In this document: positions 1 to 50,432 of the stretch, piece after piece
How the letters are laid out: each line of letters starts with the position of its first letter
Position numbering within the stretch: position 1 is the first letter of the stretch
Assembly (NCBI RefSeq): GCF_000027125.1
Contig: NC_017626.1
Origin: Escherichia coli 042
GTDB lineage: Bacteria; Pseudomonadota; Gammaproteobacteria; Enterobacterales; Enterobacteriaceae
DNA length: 64,000 nucleotides
Reading direction: 5' to 3' (one strand)
The notes under the pieces: model-generated
The model's database searches: none
What the model was told of the DNA's origin: nothing
The model's input: only the letters and a program-made list of their open reading frames with translations
Translations under genes and position numbers: made by a program

Positions 1-775
1 CCGGAATTCATCAATCCACGCTTCGTCAATACGCTGTTCGATGGTTTCTGTTCGCTGCTCGCTTACCTCGCTATAATTCTGTACCGGCACAGGATTGATG
101 ATTTTTTCCTGTGGCTCTTCCAGTTCGTCCGGAGTATACACGCCCAGGATGACGTCAGGACAATAAAGGCGAGCCCAGTATTTCAACGCCAGATAGGCGA
201 GCTGTTGTTTCGGGTTTGAGGTCCATAAAGGAGAATTACGCGTAATCACGCTGGAAAGAAACACCGGTTCTCCCCAGGTAATCTCACTTTCACCGCGAAG
301 AACTGCACCAACTCGAACTGATAGACCATACTCATCTTCACTGGTCCAACATGGGATCGTTTCTTTTTTCTCATAGATTCCGCCTCCTTTGGCCGTTTTC
401 TTAACGGTCTCCACTCGGGTGCGAGAGCATTTCTCCCAGTCTCCCTCGTACTTGTAATGGAAGCGGCCTACAATTGCACTTGAGCTAGAGATCACAGCGT
501 TAACCAGTTGTGCTTCATAACCCAGAACTCCGTTTACCAGGTGTGTTTTCTGAGCCACAGCGTAGGGGTTCATGCCCCATTGCATGGCTTGCATGATGAT
601 TGCCATGCAGTCGGCAGGATTTCCGCGAAGGTGATCGGGAACTGTGACGGTGGCCTGTGACATCAACCTGGCTACTGCCTGAAGTTGCGTCAACGCCTGA
701 ACGTTAAAAATAGTGTTACTGGCAGAAATGGTATTTGGTGTCTGCTCTGTCGTGATGATATTGGTATTTTGCATG
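1..775 (-). CDS. Phage single-strand annealing/recombination protein, N-terminal part only (gene continues past window start)
   Basis: Hand translation of minus strand from ATG at 775 (MQNTNIITTEQ...) stays open to position 1; GGAG RBS; starts 13 nt after recE stop, the position recT occupies in Rac. Sequence does not resemble Rac RecT as I recall it, so family is uncertain. Confidence 0.5.
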
Positions 776-788
776 GTCAGGTTCTCCA

Positions 789-3700
789 TTAAGCCAGATG
801 CAGTGCTTCAAGACGACGAAGATCAAAGTCGTTTAATTCGTCGGTATAACTTTCGGTAATCGGTGCTGGCCAGTTGTTTGTCTCCAGGGCTTCGTTTATC
901 TGGCGTAGCGTCCGGCGATATTCCTGTCGACCAAGTTCCAGGAGTTCCTGCGAGGCTTCCACGACAGCCACCCAGTGATAGCCAGCATCTTTGTTGACGA
1001 AGATCCAGAAAAATTTTTCCAGGTTTGCCACATCGCAATACATTGCGGCGCTGAGGTGATAATCACGCTCAATAATTTCACGGTGCAGGCGATCTTTAAG
1101 TCGTTCCTGCCGCACATAACCGAGGCTGACTGACTTCACGTCGGCGCAAATGCTTTCGTATGGCAGCCGGATTTCGATATCAGGACGGACCCTGATTTCC
1201 AGCCCGGTTTCTTCATCAAACCCGAAATAGCTGATTTCAGATTTGCGATCCGGGTGGTTGAGTAGCCTTGCCGCATCAGTATTGTTTTGCAGTGCCGCGT
1301 GAATATTTTTTGCCTGTTCATACATATCCGGACTGATAAACGTTTTCCCGGCGTTTTCTTCTTGCTGGCGTTTTTGCCAGTCCTCCAGTGTCACCAGTTC
1401 CGGGCGAATTTTCCGTGCGATTTCGGTTAATTGCTCTTTCGTGCCACTGATGTTGTAAGGCAAAGATTTAGCACGTTCTTTTTTTGCCAGTTCTGGGTCT
1501 ACAGTTTCAATTTGATCCAGAAGTTGCTCCCGTGCTCCACTGGTTTTCAACAGAGGAGGGAGGCTTGCGTTGTATTCTTTAATACAGGCTTTCATTGCTG
1601 ATGCTGTGTGTTTTTCCCCCTCAGGGATACGCCGAAATTCCACCGGAAGCGAACCGTAAAGGATGCCTGTTTCTTCGGCCCCAGCACTTACAGACAGTGG
1701 CTGTATAAGAGTGCTGTTGTAGCTTTCGATCCACTCTTTCATCTGCTCTGGTGTCATCAGTGCTGGCAGACTGGCATTGTGTTTTTTAATGATGGCGATC
1801 AGTTCGTTAGAAGTAGTAACCACATATTCAGGAACCGGTACCGGAATGGCATATTCATCAGCGAATTTATCCGTTTCCAGAACATAGCTGTGAATGATCC
1901 TCCCACGCAGCAGTGCATCACTTTCCTCATTCGGAATAGTTCCGGCAATGTGCCGCCCGTGGTAATACATCAGGCTGATACGGGCATCCTTCAGCATCGT
2001 GCTGCTTATTCCGTTGGCGGAGTGATAAACCTCGTTCGGGAGGTTTTCATAGCGGCCTGGCTCGAAATATGACGGCCACATGATTTCAGTTGCTACAGGA
2101 GCTGACGCTTCACCAGTTTGATCACTGCAATCACGATGCGGATCGCTGCCAGCATTCTCATTGTGCGGATGTTCAGCGCCTTCCATTTCCACCGGATCTT
2201 TTTCCTTAGCTTCAACCTGATTCTCTTCATCGAATGTTTCCTGGTATGTTGCGTCGCCCATCACCGCGCCACAGTCAGGGCAGTTACTGCCGCCGGTCTG
2301 ACCGCAGGCGGCGCAGACTTTTTCCGGTTCCTGTTGCGCTTCTGGTTCATTTTGTCGCGAATTTTGGCCGTTTTGTTCCGATTTTCGGTCGTTCTGTTCC
2401 GTTTTTGGCTGATGCTGGTACACAGAATCGCGGGTCTGGATCCCCTTAACCCATTTCGGATCATTCGGGTCGCTAATCCCTTCAACAAATTCTCCGCGAT
2501 AGGCAGCCAGTAATTTGTCTGCATCAACAGAATTTACCTGTGACTGAGCATCCAGCGGCTGCGTGTCCTGATGATGTTCAGTTGCATCCGGTTCCACTGT
2601 TTCAGCCGTTGCCTGTTCATCTGCCATTGCGCCAGATGGTTGCGGTTTTTCTTCATCATTCTGTTTTCCCTCCTCTGTTACACGCTGCGGCATCGGGGCA
2701 GAGGAGCGACCGCAGGCAATATCCACGATTTCCGGATCAGGGTTGGCATGATCGGTTTCAGTCAGTACTTTGTTCAGATATTCTGTGACGTGCGCGGGGA
2801 TGACCTCGATCCCAATTGGTGCTTCTTTCACGGACGCAACCACGATGGCGCGAGAATAATCCAGCCCGCCAGGCATGGTGATGAATTTGTCGCGGAAAAC
2901 AGAAAAGGGCGGTTTATTTTCAGCGATAATTTCCTCAATGCGTTTAGCGTGTGCCGGATGAAGGTTATAGATGTCCACGTCCATTGAACGGGCCAGTACG
3001 CCAGTGGCTACGTCGCGCGCCAGTGACGTAAGATCGTGGACGAAACCTTCGCCGCGATCGGTGAGGTTCCCGCCGCCAGCATTAGCACCGGAAGCCGTGC
3101 GAGTGATGCGTGAAACACGATTACCCTTCATCCACTCTTTTGTCAGCAGTCCTCGATCGGTGTAGTCAGCGTTCAGGTATACTTCGAAAAAAGCAGTTAA
3201 CAGTCCCAAGTCTGAATTACCAGGATTAGGGAAAACTTTGTCAGTGTCACGAACCAGTTTGTGGAGATCGCGAATTTCCAGCGGGTCGAGCAGGCTGGTT
3301 TTGTGGGAAACAGCCAGGGCAGTAACAGCCGGTAGTTCTTCAGCCCGTGCAATGTGTAATGCCTGGAGTTCGCCGCGTGAAACGTGCGTTACCGGTTTTT
3401 CGCTGCCGTGTTGAGCAAGCCAACGAATGGGCAGTTCCTGGCCAGAAATTGGGAGTAGCATATTCTCCTCAATCTCAGTCATGTCTTCGCCGTTGACGTT
3501 GGTATTGCCTTGATAGTGAGCGTTGTCTGGTGCTGCTCCCGGTTTTAGTTCCCATGTCATGGAGTCTTTGCTGAGTTGATAGCGTTCACTCCAGGTAAAA
3601 TCGATCTCACCTTCAGCGGGCAGGTCATTAACGACAGGAAAATTCGTGGCAACAGCTTTAAAATAGCTGCTCAGTTTTTTACCTGACTTAACGATCTGGT

Positions 3701-3812
3701 AGTCCAGAGTGGCACAGGTCGATTCAAAATCGTCACTTGCCCACAGGACGACGTCAGGTTCACCGGATGATTTTTTCGCTTTCCGTAACAGGAAGAGTGG
3801 TTTTGTGCTCAT
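789..3812 (-). CDS. recE: Exonuclease VIII (RecE-like), 1007 aa
   Basis: Long ORF; C-terminal region has RecE-type nuclease-domain character (e.g. [10 protein letters not shown]) as I recall it; synteny with racC/ydaE/kilR. Longer than K-12 RecE (866 aa). Confidence 0.8.
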
Positions 3813-44323: not shown

Positions 44324-45181
44324 CTAATTGGGTGATGACAAATCCTGTGTATGGGTGTTTCCCTTTGTGCGTGCGTTGATGCTGGTAACGGTGAACGTCA
44401 TGATGAACACAACCGCGAATAAGACGACAATCGTCGGAGCTGGTGCACTGTCGATAAAAAAGGACAACCAGACACCAGTCATTGACACTATTACCGATAT
44501 GCCAATCGCCAGTAGGAGCGCAATATGAAAGCGTTGTGTCAGGAGTACCGCAATGGCGCCAGGCGCAATGAGCAGAGAAATGGAGAGAATGATACCTACC
44601 GCTTTCAGCGTCGCCACAATGGTCAGAGAGACCATGCACAGCAGCCCATAATGCAGACATCTCGTATGCAAACCGCTTACCTGCGCCTGTTGATAATCAA
44701 AGCTGAACAGCAAAAAATCCCGCCATTTTACGCTAATAACAAGTGTAACCAACCCGGCAATAATCACCGTCTGGATTATATCGCCGATGGTTACCCCGAG
44801 CATGTCGCCGAAAAGAATATGGTCAAGATGTACGTCTGGTTTGACTGCAATATACAAGATCAGACCTGCGGCAAACATGCCAGAAAAAACAATCCCCATC
44901 ACTGTATCTTGCTTGATTCGGCTGTTGTCTTTCAGGTATCCCGTCGCCACCGCGCAGAATACTCCGGCGACGAATGCCCCTGTAGCCAGAGGTAACCCCA
45001 GAATCCAGGCAAGCACGATGCCAGGAAAAACCGCATGACTCATCGCGTCACCCATCAGTGCCCAACCTTTCAGGACCAGAAAGACCGACAGCAGCGCACA
45101 GGGTATGGAAACTACCAGTGAAATCAGCAGTGCGTGACTCATAAAGGTGAACTGCAGTGGCTCCAGTAATAATGCCATCAT
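44324..45181 (-). CDS. sitD: Mn/Fe ABC transporter permease SitD
   Basis: Polytopic permease; operon order sitABCD. Confidence 0.9.
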   Translation of the reverse strand: MMALLLEPLQFTFMSHALLISLVVSIPCALLSVFLVLKGWALMGDAMSHAVFPGIVLAWILGLPLATGAFVAGVFCAVATGYLKDNSRIKQDTVMGIVFSGMFAAGLILYIAVKPDVHLDHILFGDMLGVTIGDIIQTVIIAGLVTLVISVKWRDFLLFSFDYQQAQVSGLHTRCLHYGLLCMVSLTIVATLKAVGIILSISLLIAPGAIAVLLTQRFHIALLLAIGISVIVSMTGVWLSFFIDSAPAPTIVVLFAVVFIMTFTVTSINARTKGNTHTQDLSSPN

Positions 45182-46035
45182 GAGCGATCCTCCAGCGCTT
45201 TATGCGCACGCCGACGATTTGCCAAAAGCCCATGGGTGGGCGCAAATACAAATGCTAAAAGAAACAGCAGTGTCTGCGCCACCACGATGATTCCACCTGT
45301 CGCGCCGTCCAGAAAGTAACTGACCCACGCGCCGAGGAAACTGGTTACACTGCCAATAGTTACAGCAATTATGAGCAGGCGGGGAAAATGATCGGTTAAC
45401 AACCATGCTGTTGCACCGGGAGTCACCACCAGACAGATCACCAGAAAGGCACCAACCGTTTGCAGCGCCGCAACGGTCGAAACCGACAGCAGGGTGAAGA
45501 AGAGGATTTTTAATCTGCCCGGATGCAATCCAATAGCACGAGCGTGATTCTCGTCGAAAAAGGTCACCATAAGATCTTTCCATTTGAAAAAAAGCACGAT
45601 GATCGAGAGAATGCCAATGATAGTGAGTTGCAGGATATCCGCCGGATCGATTGCCAGAATATTGCCCAGGACGATGGTCTGAATGTTCACGGATGTCGGG
45701 TTCAATGACACCATAAACAGCCCCAGGCCAAAAAAGGAGGAGAAGATCAGGCCGATGATGGCATCTTCTTTTAAGCGAGTGCGTTGGTTAAGAAACAGCA
45801 TGCTGCCCGCTGCCAGTCCGCCGGAAAAGAAGGCTCCCAGAGAAAACGGAAGCCCCAGCATATATGCCCCCGCAACACCCGGGACAATAGAGTGCGACAG
45901 CGCATCGCCAATCAGCGACCAGCCTTTTAGCATCAGATAGCATGACAGGAAAGCGCAGAGACCGCCGACCATCGCCGAGACCCACATCGCATTGAGCATA
46001 TATTCATAGCTGAAGGGTTCCAGTAGCACGTTCAT
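45178..46035 (-). CDS. sitC: Mn/Fe ABC transporter permease SitC
   Basis: Polytopic permease paralogous to SitD. Confidence 0.9.
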
Positions 46036-46859
46036 CTTGCTTCCCCCTGCACCGCTGACGGTCGATGTGCCACAAAAGGGTGTTCATCGTCAGTAATAAT
46101 GCTTTCTTCCGAGCCGTTAAGTGTGACATGGCGCAGTACGCCGCTAAAAGCCAGCTCCAGGTTCTCGGCTGTAAAAGTGGTGTCTGTCGGCCCGCTTGCC
46201 AGGACGGTGCCTTTGACCATGACCGTATAATCGCAAAATGTCGTGACTGAGCCGAGATTGTGCGTTGAGACAAGCATCGTCTTGCCTTCCGCGCGTAACT
46301 CCCTCAACAGGCTGATGATTTTCGCTTCGGTTTTCACATCAACGCCGGTAAAAGGTTCATCCAGCAGGATCACATCACCCTGCTGTGCAATCGCTCTCGC
46401 CAGAAAGACGCGTTTCTTTTGTCCACCGGAAAGCTCGCCGATTTGTCGATGGCGAAAATCCACCATATCGACACGTTCCAGCGCATCGGTGACAATCTGA
46501 CGATCCCTCTTTTTGGCTATACGCAACATACCCATGTGCCCATAGCGGCCCATCATCACCACATCTTCCACTAGTACAGGAAATGACCAGTCAACCTCTT
46601 CTGACTGAGGGACGTAGGCAACCAGGTTTTTCTGTAGCGCCTGTCGCGTGGGAATACCCAGAACAGATATCTTTCCGCTGGTCAGACGGACAAATCCCAT
46701 AATCGCTTTAAACAACGTCGATTTTCCGGAACCGTTTACCCCAACCAGAGCGGCAATAGATCCACTTGGTACTGTGAAGGATGCATCGCGCAGTGCTGTG
46801 TGCCCGTTACGCCAGGTGACAGTAACATCATTAACGACAATGCCCGCAGATTGCATCAT
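46032..46859 (-). CDS. sitB: Mn/Fe ABC transporter ATP-binding protein SitB
   Basis: Walker [13 protein letters not shown] signature LSGGQKKR, Walker B ILLDEP. Confidence 0.9.
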
Positions 46860-47773
46860 TATTTCTCCCTTTTCCCGGCTTTAATTCCCTGTACCAGCGT
46901 ACTGGTAGTAACCTTCAGAAGGTCGATATACGTAGGTACCGGGCCGTTTTCTGTGCTCAGGGAATCGACATAGAGTACACCGCCGTAGTGCGCGCCGGTT
47001 TCACGCGCAACCTGACGCGCTGGTTTATCGGAAATCGTACTCTCGCTAAAGACTGCCGGGATATGATTTTTCTTCACCATATCAACAACCTTACGTACCT
47101 GCTGCGGCGTGCCTTGTTGATCGGCATTAATCGGCCACAGATAAAGCTCTTTTAGCCCCAAATCGCGTGCGAGATAAGAAAAAGCCCCTTCACTGGTGAC
47201 CATCCATCGCTGATTCTCAGGGAGTTCAGCAATCTGCTTACGCAGGGGGGCAAGGGTTTGGGTAATCTTGGCTTTATAAGTATCGGCATTACGTTGGTAG
47301 GTTTGTGCATTTGCCGGATCGTATTTTATCAACGCATCACGAATATTATCGACATAAATCAGAGCATTATCTGGCGACATCCAGGCATGGGGGTTAGGTT
47401 TGCCCTCATAGGGTCCTTCGGTGATCCCTACTGGCGTCACACCCGAAGAGACAATTACTTCTGGAACCCCATTGAGATGTTGGTAAAAGCGTTGGAACCA
47501 CAATTCCAGATTCATACCATTGGCGAGAATCAGTTGTGCCCCCTGCGCACGTTTAATATCTCCAGGGGTAGGCTGATACTCATGAATTTCTGCACCAGGC
47601 TTGGTTATGGATGAGACTTCTGCAGCATCTCCAGCCACGTTTTTGGCCATATCCGCGATGATGGTAAATGTTGTAATGACCTTGAATTTTTCAGTTGCAC
47701 TTGCCTGAAATGCGATCGAGCAGGTGAGGGCGAGGCACCCCAAGAGCATGGTTACTTTTTTTATTGAGTGCAT
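46859..47773 (-). CDS. sitA: Periplasmic metal-binding protein SitA
   Basis: Signal peptide; cluster-9 substrate-binding protein family. Confidence 0.9.
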
Positions 47774-47805
47774 AATTTAGTACCTATAGTGAGCAAAATT
47801 AGAAA

Positions 47806-47827
47806 AAACATAGCAACAGCTATGTTT
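47806..47827. promoter_or_regulatory. MntR box (perfect palindrome AAACATAGC-AACA-GCTATGTTT)
   Basis: Palindrome 33-54 bp upstream of sitA start; matches E. coli MntR operator consensus. Confidence 0.75.
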
Positions 47828-47845
47828 TATAGCATAAGCCATGCA

Positions 47846-47866
47846 AAATGAAAATGATTATCATTA
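47846..47866. promoter_or_regulatory. Fur box-like site
   Basis: aatgaaaatgattatcattag resembles GATAATGATAATCATTATC. Confidence 0.6.
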
Positions 47867-48325
47867 GCGGTTGTGGGCCCAACACAGGGATTAGGTTGTT
47901 TCCTGCTGGCGATGTGGTATTGAGGAAAAAATTAGGGCAGCTATTAGGCTTTGAAATGACTTTATGAGGAGAATTGTTGATGGCAAAAATGGGGCAAAGC
48001 GCTGCAAAAGGGGCAAAAAAGGGGCAAAAAAAGAGTGGGTTATCGTAGCTTATTGTTGTCGCTGATGATGTTTAACACATTGAAAAATAAGTAAAATACT
48101 TATGAGTCAGAGAGTTGTGATTTTTGCCCTTACTTGTTCAGATTGTATTGTTCTTTCTTACTAATTTCTTGATTTTGCGACATTTAAAAGCGACTCAATT
48201 CGTTATATGGCATCAGAAGAGTATGCGTCATGCCGGAAAGCCCAGCATAAGAAATCTGATATAAAAACTGTGGCGTGTATGGTACGGATTAGAGGGGAAA
48301 ATGTCAGCACATTTGCGAAATGAAT

Positions 48326-50067: not shown

Positions 50068-50294
50068 TGAATAAATCCTTTAGTTATTTTATTTGCCTTT
50101 TATCCCCATTTCGGGGAGTGAAAACATCCTAAAGGAGATGTTCAGTTAGCCGATAAATATCATTTGTTACGCCTTAAGTAAAACCTTAATCAAATAATTC
50201 TTCTGAAATGATAATAAGTCTGGTGAATGTATTGGAGATAATACATACAAAATAAAAATTATACTTTTAATTTGCTATACGTTATTCTGCGCGG

Positions 50295-50403
50295 GTTATA
50301 TGCCTTTATTGTCACAGATTTTATTTTCTGTTGGGCCATTGCATTGCCACTGATTTTCCAACATATAAAAAGACAAGCCCGAACAGTCGTTCGGGCTTTT
50401 TTT
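50295..50403 (+). ncRNA. micC: MicC small regulatory RNA
   Basis: Sequence GTTATATGCCTTTATTGTCACAG... ending in gcccgaac...gttcgggc + T-run; between ompN and ydbK. Confidence 0.85.
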
Positions 50404-50432
50404 TAGAATTGGATAATTCTTATCCAGAGCAT

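What the first reader, a model, noticed from the sequence alone, without database searches (positions are those of the whole stretch)
47990..48040. Four direct GGGGCAAA repeats between sitA promoter and uspF
The sequence atggcaaaaatggggcaaagcgctgcaaaaggggcaaaaaaggggcaaaaaaag contains GGGGCAAA-type repeats at about 10-13 bp spacing. They could be arm-type integrase-binding sites of attR, which would put sitABCD inside the prophage, or part of a tiny Lys/Gly-rich ORF (MAKMGQSAAKGAKKGQKKSGLS, 22 aa).
Basis: seen in the sequence. Interest (0 to 1): 0.4.

Follow-up and report, generated by a model that had tools for sequence, protein, structure and literature searches.

The report
Integrase arm sites of Rac-like prophage
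The GGGGCAAA repeats are most likely the docking sites where the integrase of a Rac-like prophage grips the right end of the prophage (attR), which is ordinary phage biology and confirms that the sitABCD iron/manganese transporter is carried inside the prophage.

Summary
The repeats are real: three exact GGGGCAAA and two degenerate units (GCAAA starts at 47983, 47994, 48004, 48013 and 48024; spacing 11, 10, 9, 11), which is far beyond chance. They lie 100-150 bp inside attR of a roughly 50-kb Rac-like prophage integrated in the 5' end of ttcA (core at 48134-48159).

The same motif, in the same orientation, occurs at attL between the core and the intR stop codon in K-12 Rac and in two genomes close to this window. 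It also occurs on both sides of the core in the intact attP of phage PHB10 (Int 69% identical). Five further phages (Int about 43% identical) show the same layout: 1-2 TGCCCC(A/T) units at the int 3' end and 2-4 about 200 bp away.

IntR has an N-terminal Arm-DNA-bind_2 domain. Published data put an IHF site between the attL core and the attL repeats, and show that XisR does not bind a fragment holding the attR repeats.

The micro-ORF is a by-product. All three frames are open because the block lacks T, its SD and ATG arise at the sit-cassette junction, and its stop codon is lost in an O103 variant.

This is a new member of a known kind, of modest interest.

The parts
47981..48133 (+). Phage-derived arm of attR (P arm by the lambda convention, the arm distal to int) of the Rac-like prophage.
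   Evidence: Homology with K-12 Rac, BL21 and an O103 Rac-like prophage starts exactly at 47981 although the cargo to the left differs in each. Homology with an empty ttcA-uspF site starts at 48134.
47981..47989 (+). Unit 1, degenerate arm-type unit TGGCAAAAA. It is the outermost conserved element of attP.
   Evidence: It is conserved in K-12, BL21 and O103 and marks the edge of homology.
47991..47999 (+). Unit 2, GGGGCAAAG.
48001..48009 (+). Unit 3, degenerate, GCTGCAAAA.
   Evidence: A comparable degenerate unit (TTTGCAAC) ends the attL array.
48010..48019 (+). Unit 4, GGGGCAAAAA.
48021..48032 (+). Unit 5, GGGGCAAAAAAA.
48073..48085 (+). IHF-like site TAAcacaTTGAAa, 12 of 13 positions of YAANNNNTTGATW (8 of the 9 specified), between the repeats and the core. 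Putative.
   Evidence: It is conserved in all Rac-type arms, and PHB10 has a perfect TAActaaTTGATt at the same place. It rests on a sequence match only, with no binding data for this arm.
48134..48159 (+). attR core or common region, TTGTTCAGATTGTATTGTTCTTTCTT, lying in codons 9-17 of ttcA.
   Evidence: It is a 26-bp identity block between K-12 attL and attR. Only the first 15 bp are shared with the STEC309-type attL. There is a single copy in the window.
48130..48183 (-). ttcA' 5' remnant (ttcC in K-12): ATG at 48183-48181, 17 codons, then a stop in phage DNA.
   Evidence: Read from the sequence. The empty site L003 has full-length ttcA here. Described by Liu 2015.
44324..47773 (-). sitDCBA operon, a cargo (moron) cassette at the right end of the prophage.
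   Evidence: ORFs and annotation of a near-identical genome. Cassette homology with a second sit locus ends at about 47968.
47980..48048 (+). 22-aa ORF MAKMGQSAAKGAKKGQKKSGLS. It is a by-product of the T-poor repeats, not a gene.

Best explanation
The five GGGGCAAA-type units are arm-type binding sites for the N-terminal domain of the Rac integrase IntR. They sit in the attR (P) arm of a roughly 50-kb Rac-like prophage integrated in the 5' end of ttcA. IntR is a heterobivalent tyrosine recombinase. Its C-terminal domains bind and cut the core (48134-48159), and its N-terminal domain would hold the distant arm units. An IHF-type bend, for which there is a candidate site at 48073-48085, would fold the arm back onto the core. 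Three matching units at attL next to intR would complete the excisive complex, with XisR setting direction. What is shown: the position in the attR arm, the same motif on both arms, conservation across the integrase family, and the presence of an arm-binding domain. What is inferred: that IntR actually binds these units, and which units are used in integration versus excision. sitABCD is cargo inserted just outside the outermost unit, so it is inside the prophage and would leave with it on excision.
For: (1) Position. Homology with an empty ttcA-uspF site starts at 48134, and homology with K-12 Rac starts at 47981. Three different cargo contexts (sit, ydfK/ynaM, NleG-like) all converge exactly at unit 1.
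(2) Both arms. K-12 attL has aaatGGGGCAAAttgGGGGCAAActtTGCAAc 49-77 bp from the core, in the 51-bp gap between the ttcA start and the intR stop. The same is seen in two genomes close to this window.
(3) Intact attP. Phage PHB10 (Int 69% identical) has 2 units, then the core inside a phage-borne ttcA 5' end, then 4-5 units.
(4) Family-wide pattern. Five phages with Int about 43% identical have TGCCCC(A/T) units at the int 3' end: two units 11 bp apart in four of them, and one exact plus one degenerate unit in phi330. Each also has 2-4 units at +150 to +215, and almost no other YGCCCC in the locus.
(5) Protein. IntR has Arm-DNA-bind_2 at residues 5-69 (E=1.2e-25). The N-domain is 44-49% identical across the family, against 27-31% for the core-binding region, which fits a shared arm motif with different attB targets.
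(6) Literature. IHF binds in vivo at a consensus site between the attL core and the attL units (PMC8407004). XisR does not shift fragment AttM, which I mapped to contain all the repeats and the whole arm up to the core (PMC4632033).
Against: There is no direct Int-binding or mutational evidence for any member of this integrase family. I found none in the searchable literature, and no solved structure covers the N-domain. The motif does not covary with the integrase, it is simply conserved, so the comparative evidence rests on conservation and position. The excisionases of all these phages also belong to one family, DUF1233, so conservation alone cannot separate Int sites from Xis sites. The window itself does not contain int or attL, and those were read from related genomes.
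Confidence: 0.85

Rival explanations
1. The units are binding sites for the excisionase XisR, the directionality factor, like the phased X1-X1.5-X2 sites in the lambda P arm.
For: They are phased direct repeats in the arm distal to int. XisR shifts the AttR fragment that contains them (PMC4632033). The DUF1233 excisionase family co-occurs with the motif in all seven phages.
Against: XisR did not shift AttM (K-12 L001 2863-3153), which holds all five units and the whole arm. The same motif sits on the int-proximal arm as well, even inside the int coding end, where Xis sites are not expected (established lambda model, from my own knowledge). The Xis proteins are only 26-34% identical, against 44-49% for the Int N-domain.
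Confidence: 0.07
2. The block encodes a translated Lys/Gly-rich micro-protein (MAKMGQSAAKGAKKGQKKSGLS).
For: The window has an ATG with GAGGAG 8 nt upstream. The frame is also open in K-12, BL21 and O103.
Against: All three forward frames are open because the block has almost no T. The unit spacing of 11, 10, 9 and 11 is not a multiple of 3, so the repeat is read in changing frames. In K-12, BL21 and O103 the start is GTG without the GAGGAG. In the window the GAGGAG and the A of the ATG come from the sit-cassette junction. The stop codon and C-terminus differ in O103, and there is no such ORF in PHB10 or the distant relatives. No plus-strand promoter-like site lies upstream. RefSeq K-12 annotates nothing here, and BL21 annotates a different frame. 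There is no Pfam hit.
Confidence: 0.03
3. The block is phased A-tract DNA that acts only as an intrinsic bend or as a nucleoid-protein (Fis/H-NS) site, or it is slippage-generated low-complexity sequence with no function.
For: A5-A7 tracts recur at about 10.5 bp, which is expected to curve DNA (sequence).
Against: The conserved part across the family is GGGGCA, not the A-tract. The distant relatives have TGCCCCATCCATGCCCCAC with no A-tracts. The motif recurs at defined positions on both arms in 7 of 7 att sites.
Confidence: 0.03
4. The repeats are part of sitABCD regulation, for example an upstream operator.
For: They lie about 210 bp upstream of the sitA start codon.
Against: The sit cassette ends at about 47968, and the second sit locus (in an icd prophage) lacks the repeats. 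Rac prophages without sit carry them. The recognisable MntR-like and Fur-like boxes are at 47805-47865, inside the cassette.
Confidence: 0.01

Closest known systems
Bacteriophage lambda attP arm-type sites (P1, P2, P'1-P'3) bound by the Int N-terminal domain
   Same: A repeated motif unrelated to the core lies on both arms of attP, 50-150 bp from the core. Three contiguous units sit on the int-proximal arm with an IHF site (H') between them and the core. The integrase is heterobivalent and has a partner excisionase.
   Different: The motif is different, GGGGCA(A/T) rather than lambda's CAGTCACTAT-type (the lambda motif is from my own knowledge). The N-domain belongs to a different Pfam family, Arm-DNA-bind_2 rather than the lambda-type Arm-DNA-bind_1. 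All units on both arms point the same way. The distal arm carries five contiguous, helically phased units rather than two separated ones. The core lies in the 5' end of a protein gene (ttcA), which the phage rebuilds.
Rac prophage attL/attR as described by Liu et al. 2015 (PMC4632033)
   Same: It is the same integration module: IntR, XisR and a core in ttcA. The window's attR arm is 97-98% identical to that of K-12.
   Different: That paper defines only the core and an XisR gel shift, and the word 'arm' does not occur in its text. Here the prophage is full-length (about 50 kb) and carries sitABCD in place of the K-12 ydfK/ynaM end.
Mycobacteriophage L5 attP arm-type sites (adjacent pairs P1/P2, P4/P5, P6/P7)
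   Same: Arm-type sites occur as closely spaced adjacent direct repeats on both arms (from my own knowledge, not tested here).
   Different: The integrase N-domain, motif and host factor (mIHF) are unrelated.

Membership tests
Arm-type sites of a heterobivalent (lambda-type) tyrosine integrase | The integrase has a separate N-terminal arm-DNA-binding domain. | tested here: met
   IntR residues 5-69 match PF12167 Arm-DNA-bind_2 at E=1.2e-25, with 89.7 bits against a cut-off of 22.
Arm-type sites of a heterobivalent (lambda-type) tyrosine integrase | A repeated motif different from the core is present on both arms of attP (at both attL and attR). | tested here: met
   attR. attL. Intact attP of PHB10. 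Five more phages.
Arm-type sites of a heterobivalent (lambda-type) tyrosine integrase | The sites lie within about 50-150 bp of the core, with a site for a DNA-bending protein in between. | tested here: met
   The attR units are 102-153 bp from the core, with an IHF-like site at 48073-48085. The attL units are 49-77 bp from the core, with an IHF site bound in vivo between them (PMC8407004). The IHF site in the attR arm rests on sequence only.
Arm-type sites of a heterobivalent (lambda-type) tyrosine integrase | The motif is conserved together with the arm-binding domain among related integrases. | tested here: met
   The motif is retained in 7 of 7 att sites. The N-domain is 44-69% identical, while the core-binding region falls to 27-31%.
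Arm-type sites of a heterobivalent (lambda-type) tyrosine integrase | The Int N-domain binds the sites directly, and the sites are required for recombination. | not testable with these tools
   No footprint, EMSA or mutational data were found for this family. No solved structure covers the N-domain.
Excisionase (RDF) binding sites | The sites are confined to one arm of attP. | tested here: not met
   The motif is on both arms in all att sites examined.
Excisionase (RDF) binding sites | The sites are bound by the excisionase. | not testable with these tools
   A published EMSA shows XisR does not shift AttM. I mapped AttM to K-12 L001 2863-3153, which includes all units at 3001-3052. This points to 'not bound', but it is one published experiment and not a test made here.
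Small-protein gene | Start codon, frame and stop codon are conserved across homologous loci. | tested here: not met
   The start is ATG only in sit-junction variants and GTG elsewhere. The stop is lost in O103. There is no such ORF in PHB10 or the distant phages. All three frames are open.
Small-protein gene | There are expression signals, meaning a promoter and an RBS native to the element. | tested here: not met
   No plus-strand promoter-like site lies upstream. The GAGGAG straddles the end of the sit cassette, reads GCGG in the other sit locus and is absent from K-12.

The most novel reading that the evidence does not exclude
The arm motif TGCCCC(A/T) and its 11-bp phasing are shared by a whole family of enterobacterial prophage integrases (Rac, PHB10, and phages like 933W, VT1-Sakai and Gifsy-2) that target different chromosomal genes. 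If the N-domains really read the same arm sequence, co-resident prophages could cross-occupy each other's arms. A resident Rac IntR might then modulate excision or integration of Stx or Gifsy phages, or allow hybrid complexes. Retargeting in this family would then evolve by swapping only the core-binding region. In the distant members the int-proximal units also encode a conserved C-terminal Int tail (AP-x-MP-H/Q), so one stretch would serve as both binding site and coding sequence.
Probability: 0.25. Interest if true: 0.55.

Novelty: new member of a known kind. Interest (0 to 1): 0.3.

Why it matters
It gives a precise functional boundary for Rac-type attP. Everything from 47981 to the core belongs to the recombination site, and cargo such as sitABCD, NleG-like effector genes or cold-shock genes is always attached just outside it. 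It shows that this copy of the sit iron/manganese transporter is mobile with the prophage. It also supplies a candidate arm-site motif, GGGGCA(A/T) at 11-bp phasing, for an integrase family that includes Stx-converting and Gifsy phages. I found no published description of arm sites for this family, so the motif could help delimit such prophages and design attP substrates. Finally, it flags a spurious 'hypothetical protein' annotation across these sites in BL21(DE3).

Tried and rejected
- I searched the window for a second core copy (attL) and found none, because the prophage runs off the left edge. attL was therefore taken from K-12, from H1 and from STEC309, which best matches the window's left end.
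- H1 is not collinear with window 1-2094, where recE differs.
- Phage record ON470595 (Int 99.8% identical) turned out to be a prophage excerpt with bacterial flanks, not an intact attP.
- An inverted copy TTTTGCCCT beside the core (48122-48130) is not conserved in O103 or PHB10, so I dropped it as a candidate site.
- Checking whether the distant relatives use a different excisionase family, to separate Int sites from Xis sites, did not discriminate. All are DUF1233.
- Rfam finds nothing at the repeats.
- Pfam finds nothing for the micro-ORF.
- The PDB has no homologue of the N-domain.
- Three literature searches found no paper defining arm-type sites for IntR or its relatives. The library lacks most subscription journals, so an older description cannot be excluded.

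Full report
**Observation**

- It holds three exact GGGGCAAA copies, at 47991, 48010 and 48021.
- It also holds two degenerate units, TGGCAAAAA at 47981 and GCTGCAAAA at 48001, so there are five units rather than four.
- GCAAA starts at 47983, 47994, 48004, 48013 and 48024, giving spacings of 11, 10, 9 and 11 bp, about one helical turn. TRF reports period 11.
- The cluster is not chance. None of 300 Markov simulations of the window had even two GGGGCAAA within 45 bp, and none had five GCAAA within 55 bp. Only 2 of 100 simulations had any 8-mer three times within 45 bp.
- The only GGGGCA pair spaced 9-12 bp in the 64 kb is the one here.

**Where it lies**

Megablast against 5,426 complete E. 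coli genomes shows three layers.
- 494 genomes match the whole sitA-uspF spacer.
- K-12, BL21 and others match only from window 47981 rightwards.
- Genomes in which ttcA and uspF are neighbours match only from 48134.

The annotations confirm this picture. In K-12 the stretch is the right end of the Rac prophage (stfR, tfaR, pinR, ydfK, ynaM, then uspF). In the empty site, ttcA abuts uspF.

Reading the sequences gives the following.
- The junction between phage and host DNA is at 48133/48134.
- The identity block TTGTTCAG(A/G)TTGTATTGTTCTTTCTT (48134-48159) lies in codons 9-17 of ttcA.
- A 17-codon ttcA remnant (48183-48130, minus strand) is left at attR.

So 47981-48133 is the phage arm of attR. 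sitDCBA (44324-47773) lies between the tail-fibre genes and that arm, inside the prophage. [quoted passage not shown]

The window has no second core, because it starts inside recE. I therefore read attL from three genomes.
- K-12 has only 51 bp between the ttcA start codon and the intR stop codon. That gap contains aaatGGGGCAAAttgGGGGCAAActtTGCAAc, in the same orientation as at attR and 49-77 bp from the core.
- A genome 99.5% identical across the sitA-uspF spacer has the same sequence.
- STEC309, which best matches the window's left end, also has it. That places attL about 2.4 kb left of the window and makes the prophage about 50 kb.

**Intact attP sites**

Phage PHB10 (complete genome, Int 69% identical) has its attP in one piece. 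After the int stop come two units (TTTTTGCCCCtattaTGCCCCtat), then a phage-borne ttcA 5' end containing the core, about 100 bp of spacer, and GTGCCCtttttTTGCCCCtatttcGCAtttTTGCCCCtaaatTTGCCCCtat. A cargo gene follows.

Five further phages have int mid-genome and Int about 43% identical: phi367 (933W-like), CobraSix, PSTRCR_117lys, FSL SP-016 (Gifsy-2-like) and phi330 (VT1-Sakai-like).
- Four of them have two TGCCCC(A/T) units 11 bp apart within the last 60 bp of int. phi330 has one exact unit plus one degenerate unit (GTGTCCCA).
- Each has two to four more units at +150 to +215.
- Elsewhere in these 2.8-6.2-kb loci YGCCCC is almost absent.

**The protein**
- IntR carries an N-terminal Arm-DNA-bind_2 domain (PF12167, E=1.2e-25) ahead of the catalytic domain.
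- Across the seven integrases the N-domain is 44-69% identical and the catalytic region 48-70%. The core-binding region drops to 27-31% in the distant members. This fits a shared arm motif combined with different chromosomal targets.
- No solved structure covers this N-domain.

**Published experiments**
- GeF-seq found an in-vivo IHF peak at the consensus TAAnnnnTTGATW near the ttcA start codon at Rac attL (PMC8407004). That is between the attL core and the attL units, giving the order core, H', P' units as in lambda.
- In the attR arm an IHF-like site (TAAcacaTTGAAa, 48073-48085) is conserved, and it is a perfect consensus in PHB10. There are no binding data for it.
- Liu et al. 2015 showed XisR shifting fragment AttR but not AttM.
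- Using their primers I mapped AttM to K-12 L001 2863-3153. That fragment contains all five units and the whole arm up to the core edge. The repeats are therefore not sufficient for XisR binding.

**Boundary of the module**

Three cargo contexts lose homology exactly at unit 1, TGGCAAAAA at 47981. They are sit here, ydfK/ynaM in K-12 and BL21, and DUF1076 (NleG-like) genes in O103. The O103 arm is about 90% identical overall but keeps the units. This is what is expected if unit 1 is the outer limit of a functional attP and cargo accumulates just outside it.

**The micro-ORF**
- All three forward frames are open across the block, because the units contain almost no T and so cannot form stop codons.
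- The unit spacing is not a multiple of three, so successive units are read in different frames.
- In K-12, BL21 and O103 the 'start' is GTG and there is no GAGGAG.
- In the window the GAGGAG straddles the end of the sit cassette. The cassette ends at about 47968 and reads GCGG at that point in a second sit locus.
- The stop codon is lost in O103, and PHB10 and the distant phages have no such ORF.
- No plus-strand promoter-like site lies upstream.
- RefSeq annotates nothing here in K-12, and in BL21 it annotates a 57-aa ORF in another frame.
- I conclude that the ORF is a by-product of the repeats.

**Mechanism and rivals**

The best-supported reading (0.85) is that the units are arm-type sites for the IntR N-domain in the attR arm. 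They would work with the three attL units, IHF bends and XisR in a lambda-like intasome.

The main rival, XisR sites (0.07), is weakened by the AttM result and by the motif being on both arms, including inside the int coding end. It is not excluded, because all these phages share a DUF1233 excisionase.

The other rivals have little support. They are the micro-protein, a pure A-tract bend and sit regulation.

**Comparison and novelty**

The system works like lambda attP. It differs in four respects:
- the motif
- the Pfam family of the N-domain
- the uniform orientation of all units
- the five phased units in the distal arm

I found no paper that defines arm sites for IntR or its relatives, but the library omits most subscription journals. 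I rate it a new member of a known kind. The annotation is useful and the biology is ordinary.

Noticed in passing
window 44324-47968; L011 1-2700 and 4408-4575: The sitABCD cassette, with about 90% identical upstream DNA, sits at the att-proximal right end of two unrelated prophage types. One is the ttcA-integrated Rac-like prophage here. The other is a prophage integrated in icd, where an icd' remnant follows. Cassette homology ends at about window 47968, 13 bp before the attR arm begins.
   Followed up: partly
window 47805-47828 and 47847-47865: The sitA promoter region contains a perfect palindrome, AAAACATAGCTGTTGCTATGTTTT. It resembles the MntR box of mntH (from my own knowledge), and the scan scored it as 'terminator-like'. 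A Fur-box-like aatgaaaatgattatcatt lies nearby. Both are inside the sit cassette and separate from the repeats.
   Followed up: no
L012-L016, last 60 bp of int (e.g. L013 2044-2066): In the distant IntR relatives the int-proximal arm units lie inside the int coding sequence. There they encode a conserved C-terminal tail, AP-x-MP-H/Q (GCC CCA tcc ATG CCC CAC). IntR and PHB10 Int stop just before their units. This would be DNA with two roles, binding site and coding sequence.
   Followed up: partly
K-12 has a 1-bp difference upstream and no such call. It is probably a spurious gene call over T-poor repeat DNA.
   Followed up: partly
window 48142; L017 2596-2625: Base 9 of the core is A in the window's attR, as in the empty attB. 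K-12 and H1 attR, and all attL copies seen, have G. The STEC309-type attL shares only 15 bp (TTGTTCAGGTTGTAT) with attR, which narrows where strand exchange can occur and matches the '15bp direct repeat' reported for EAEC 042.
   Followed up: partly
window 48122-48130 (minus strand): An inverted near-copy of the unit (AGGGCAAAA) lies directly beside the core in Rac-type arms. It is not conserved in the O103 variant or in PHB10, so it is probably fortuitous.
   Followed up: yes
window 50292-50412 (+): The MicC sRNA gene lies between ompN and the pyruvate:ferredoxin oxidoreductase gene, as in K-12 (Rfam RF00121, 127.5 bits).
   Followed up: no
window 1-2094: The 5' part of the window's recE region (a 1007-aa ORF at 789-3812) differs from the otherwise near-identical sit-Rac prophage of strain KK19-02. 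It matches STEC-type Rac-like prophages at 99%, which suggests a mosaic early region.
   Followed up: partly
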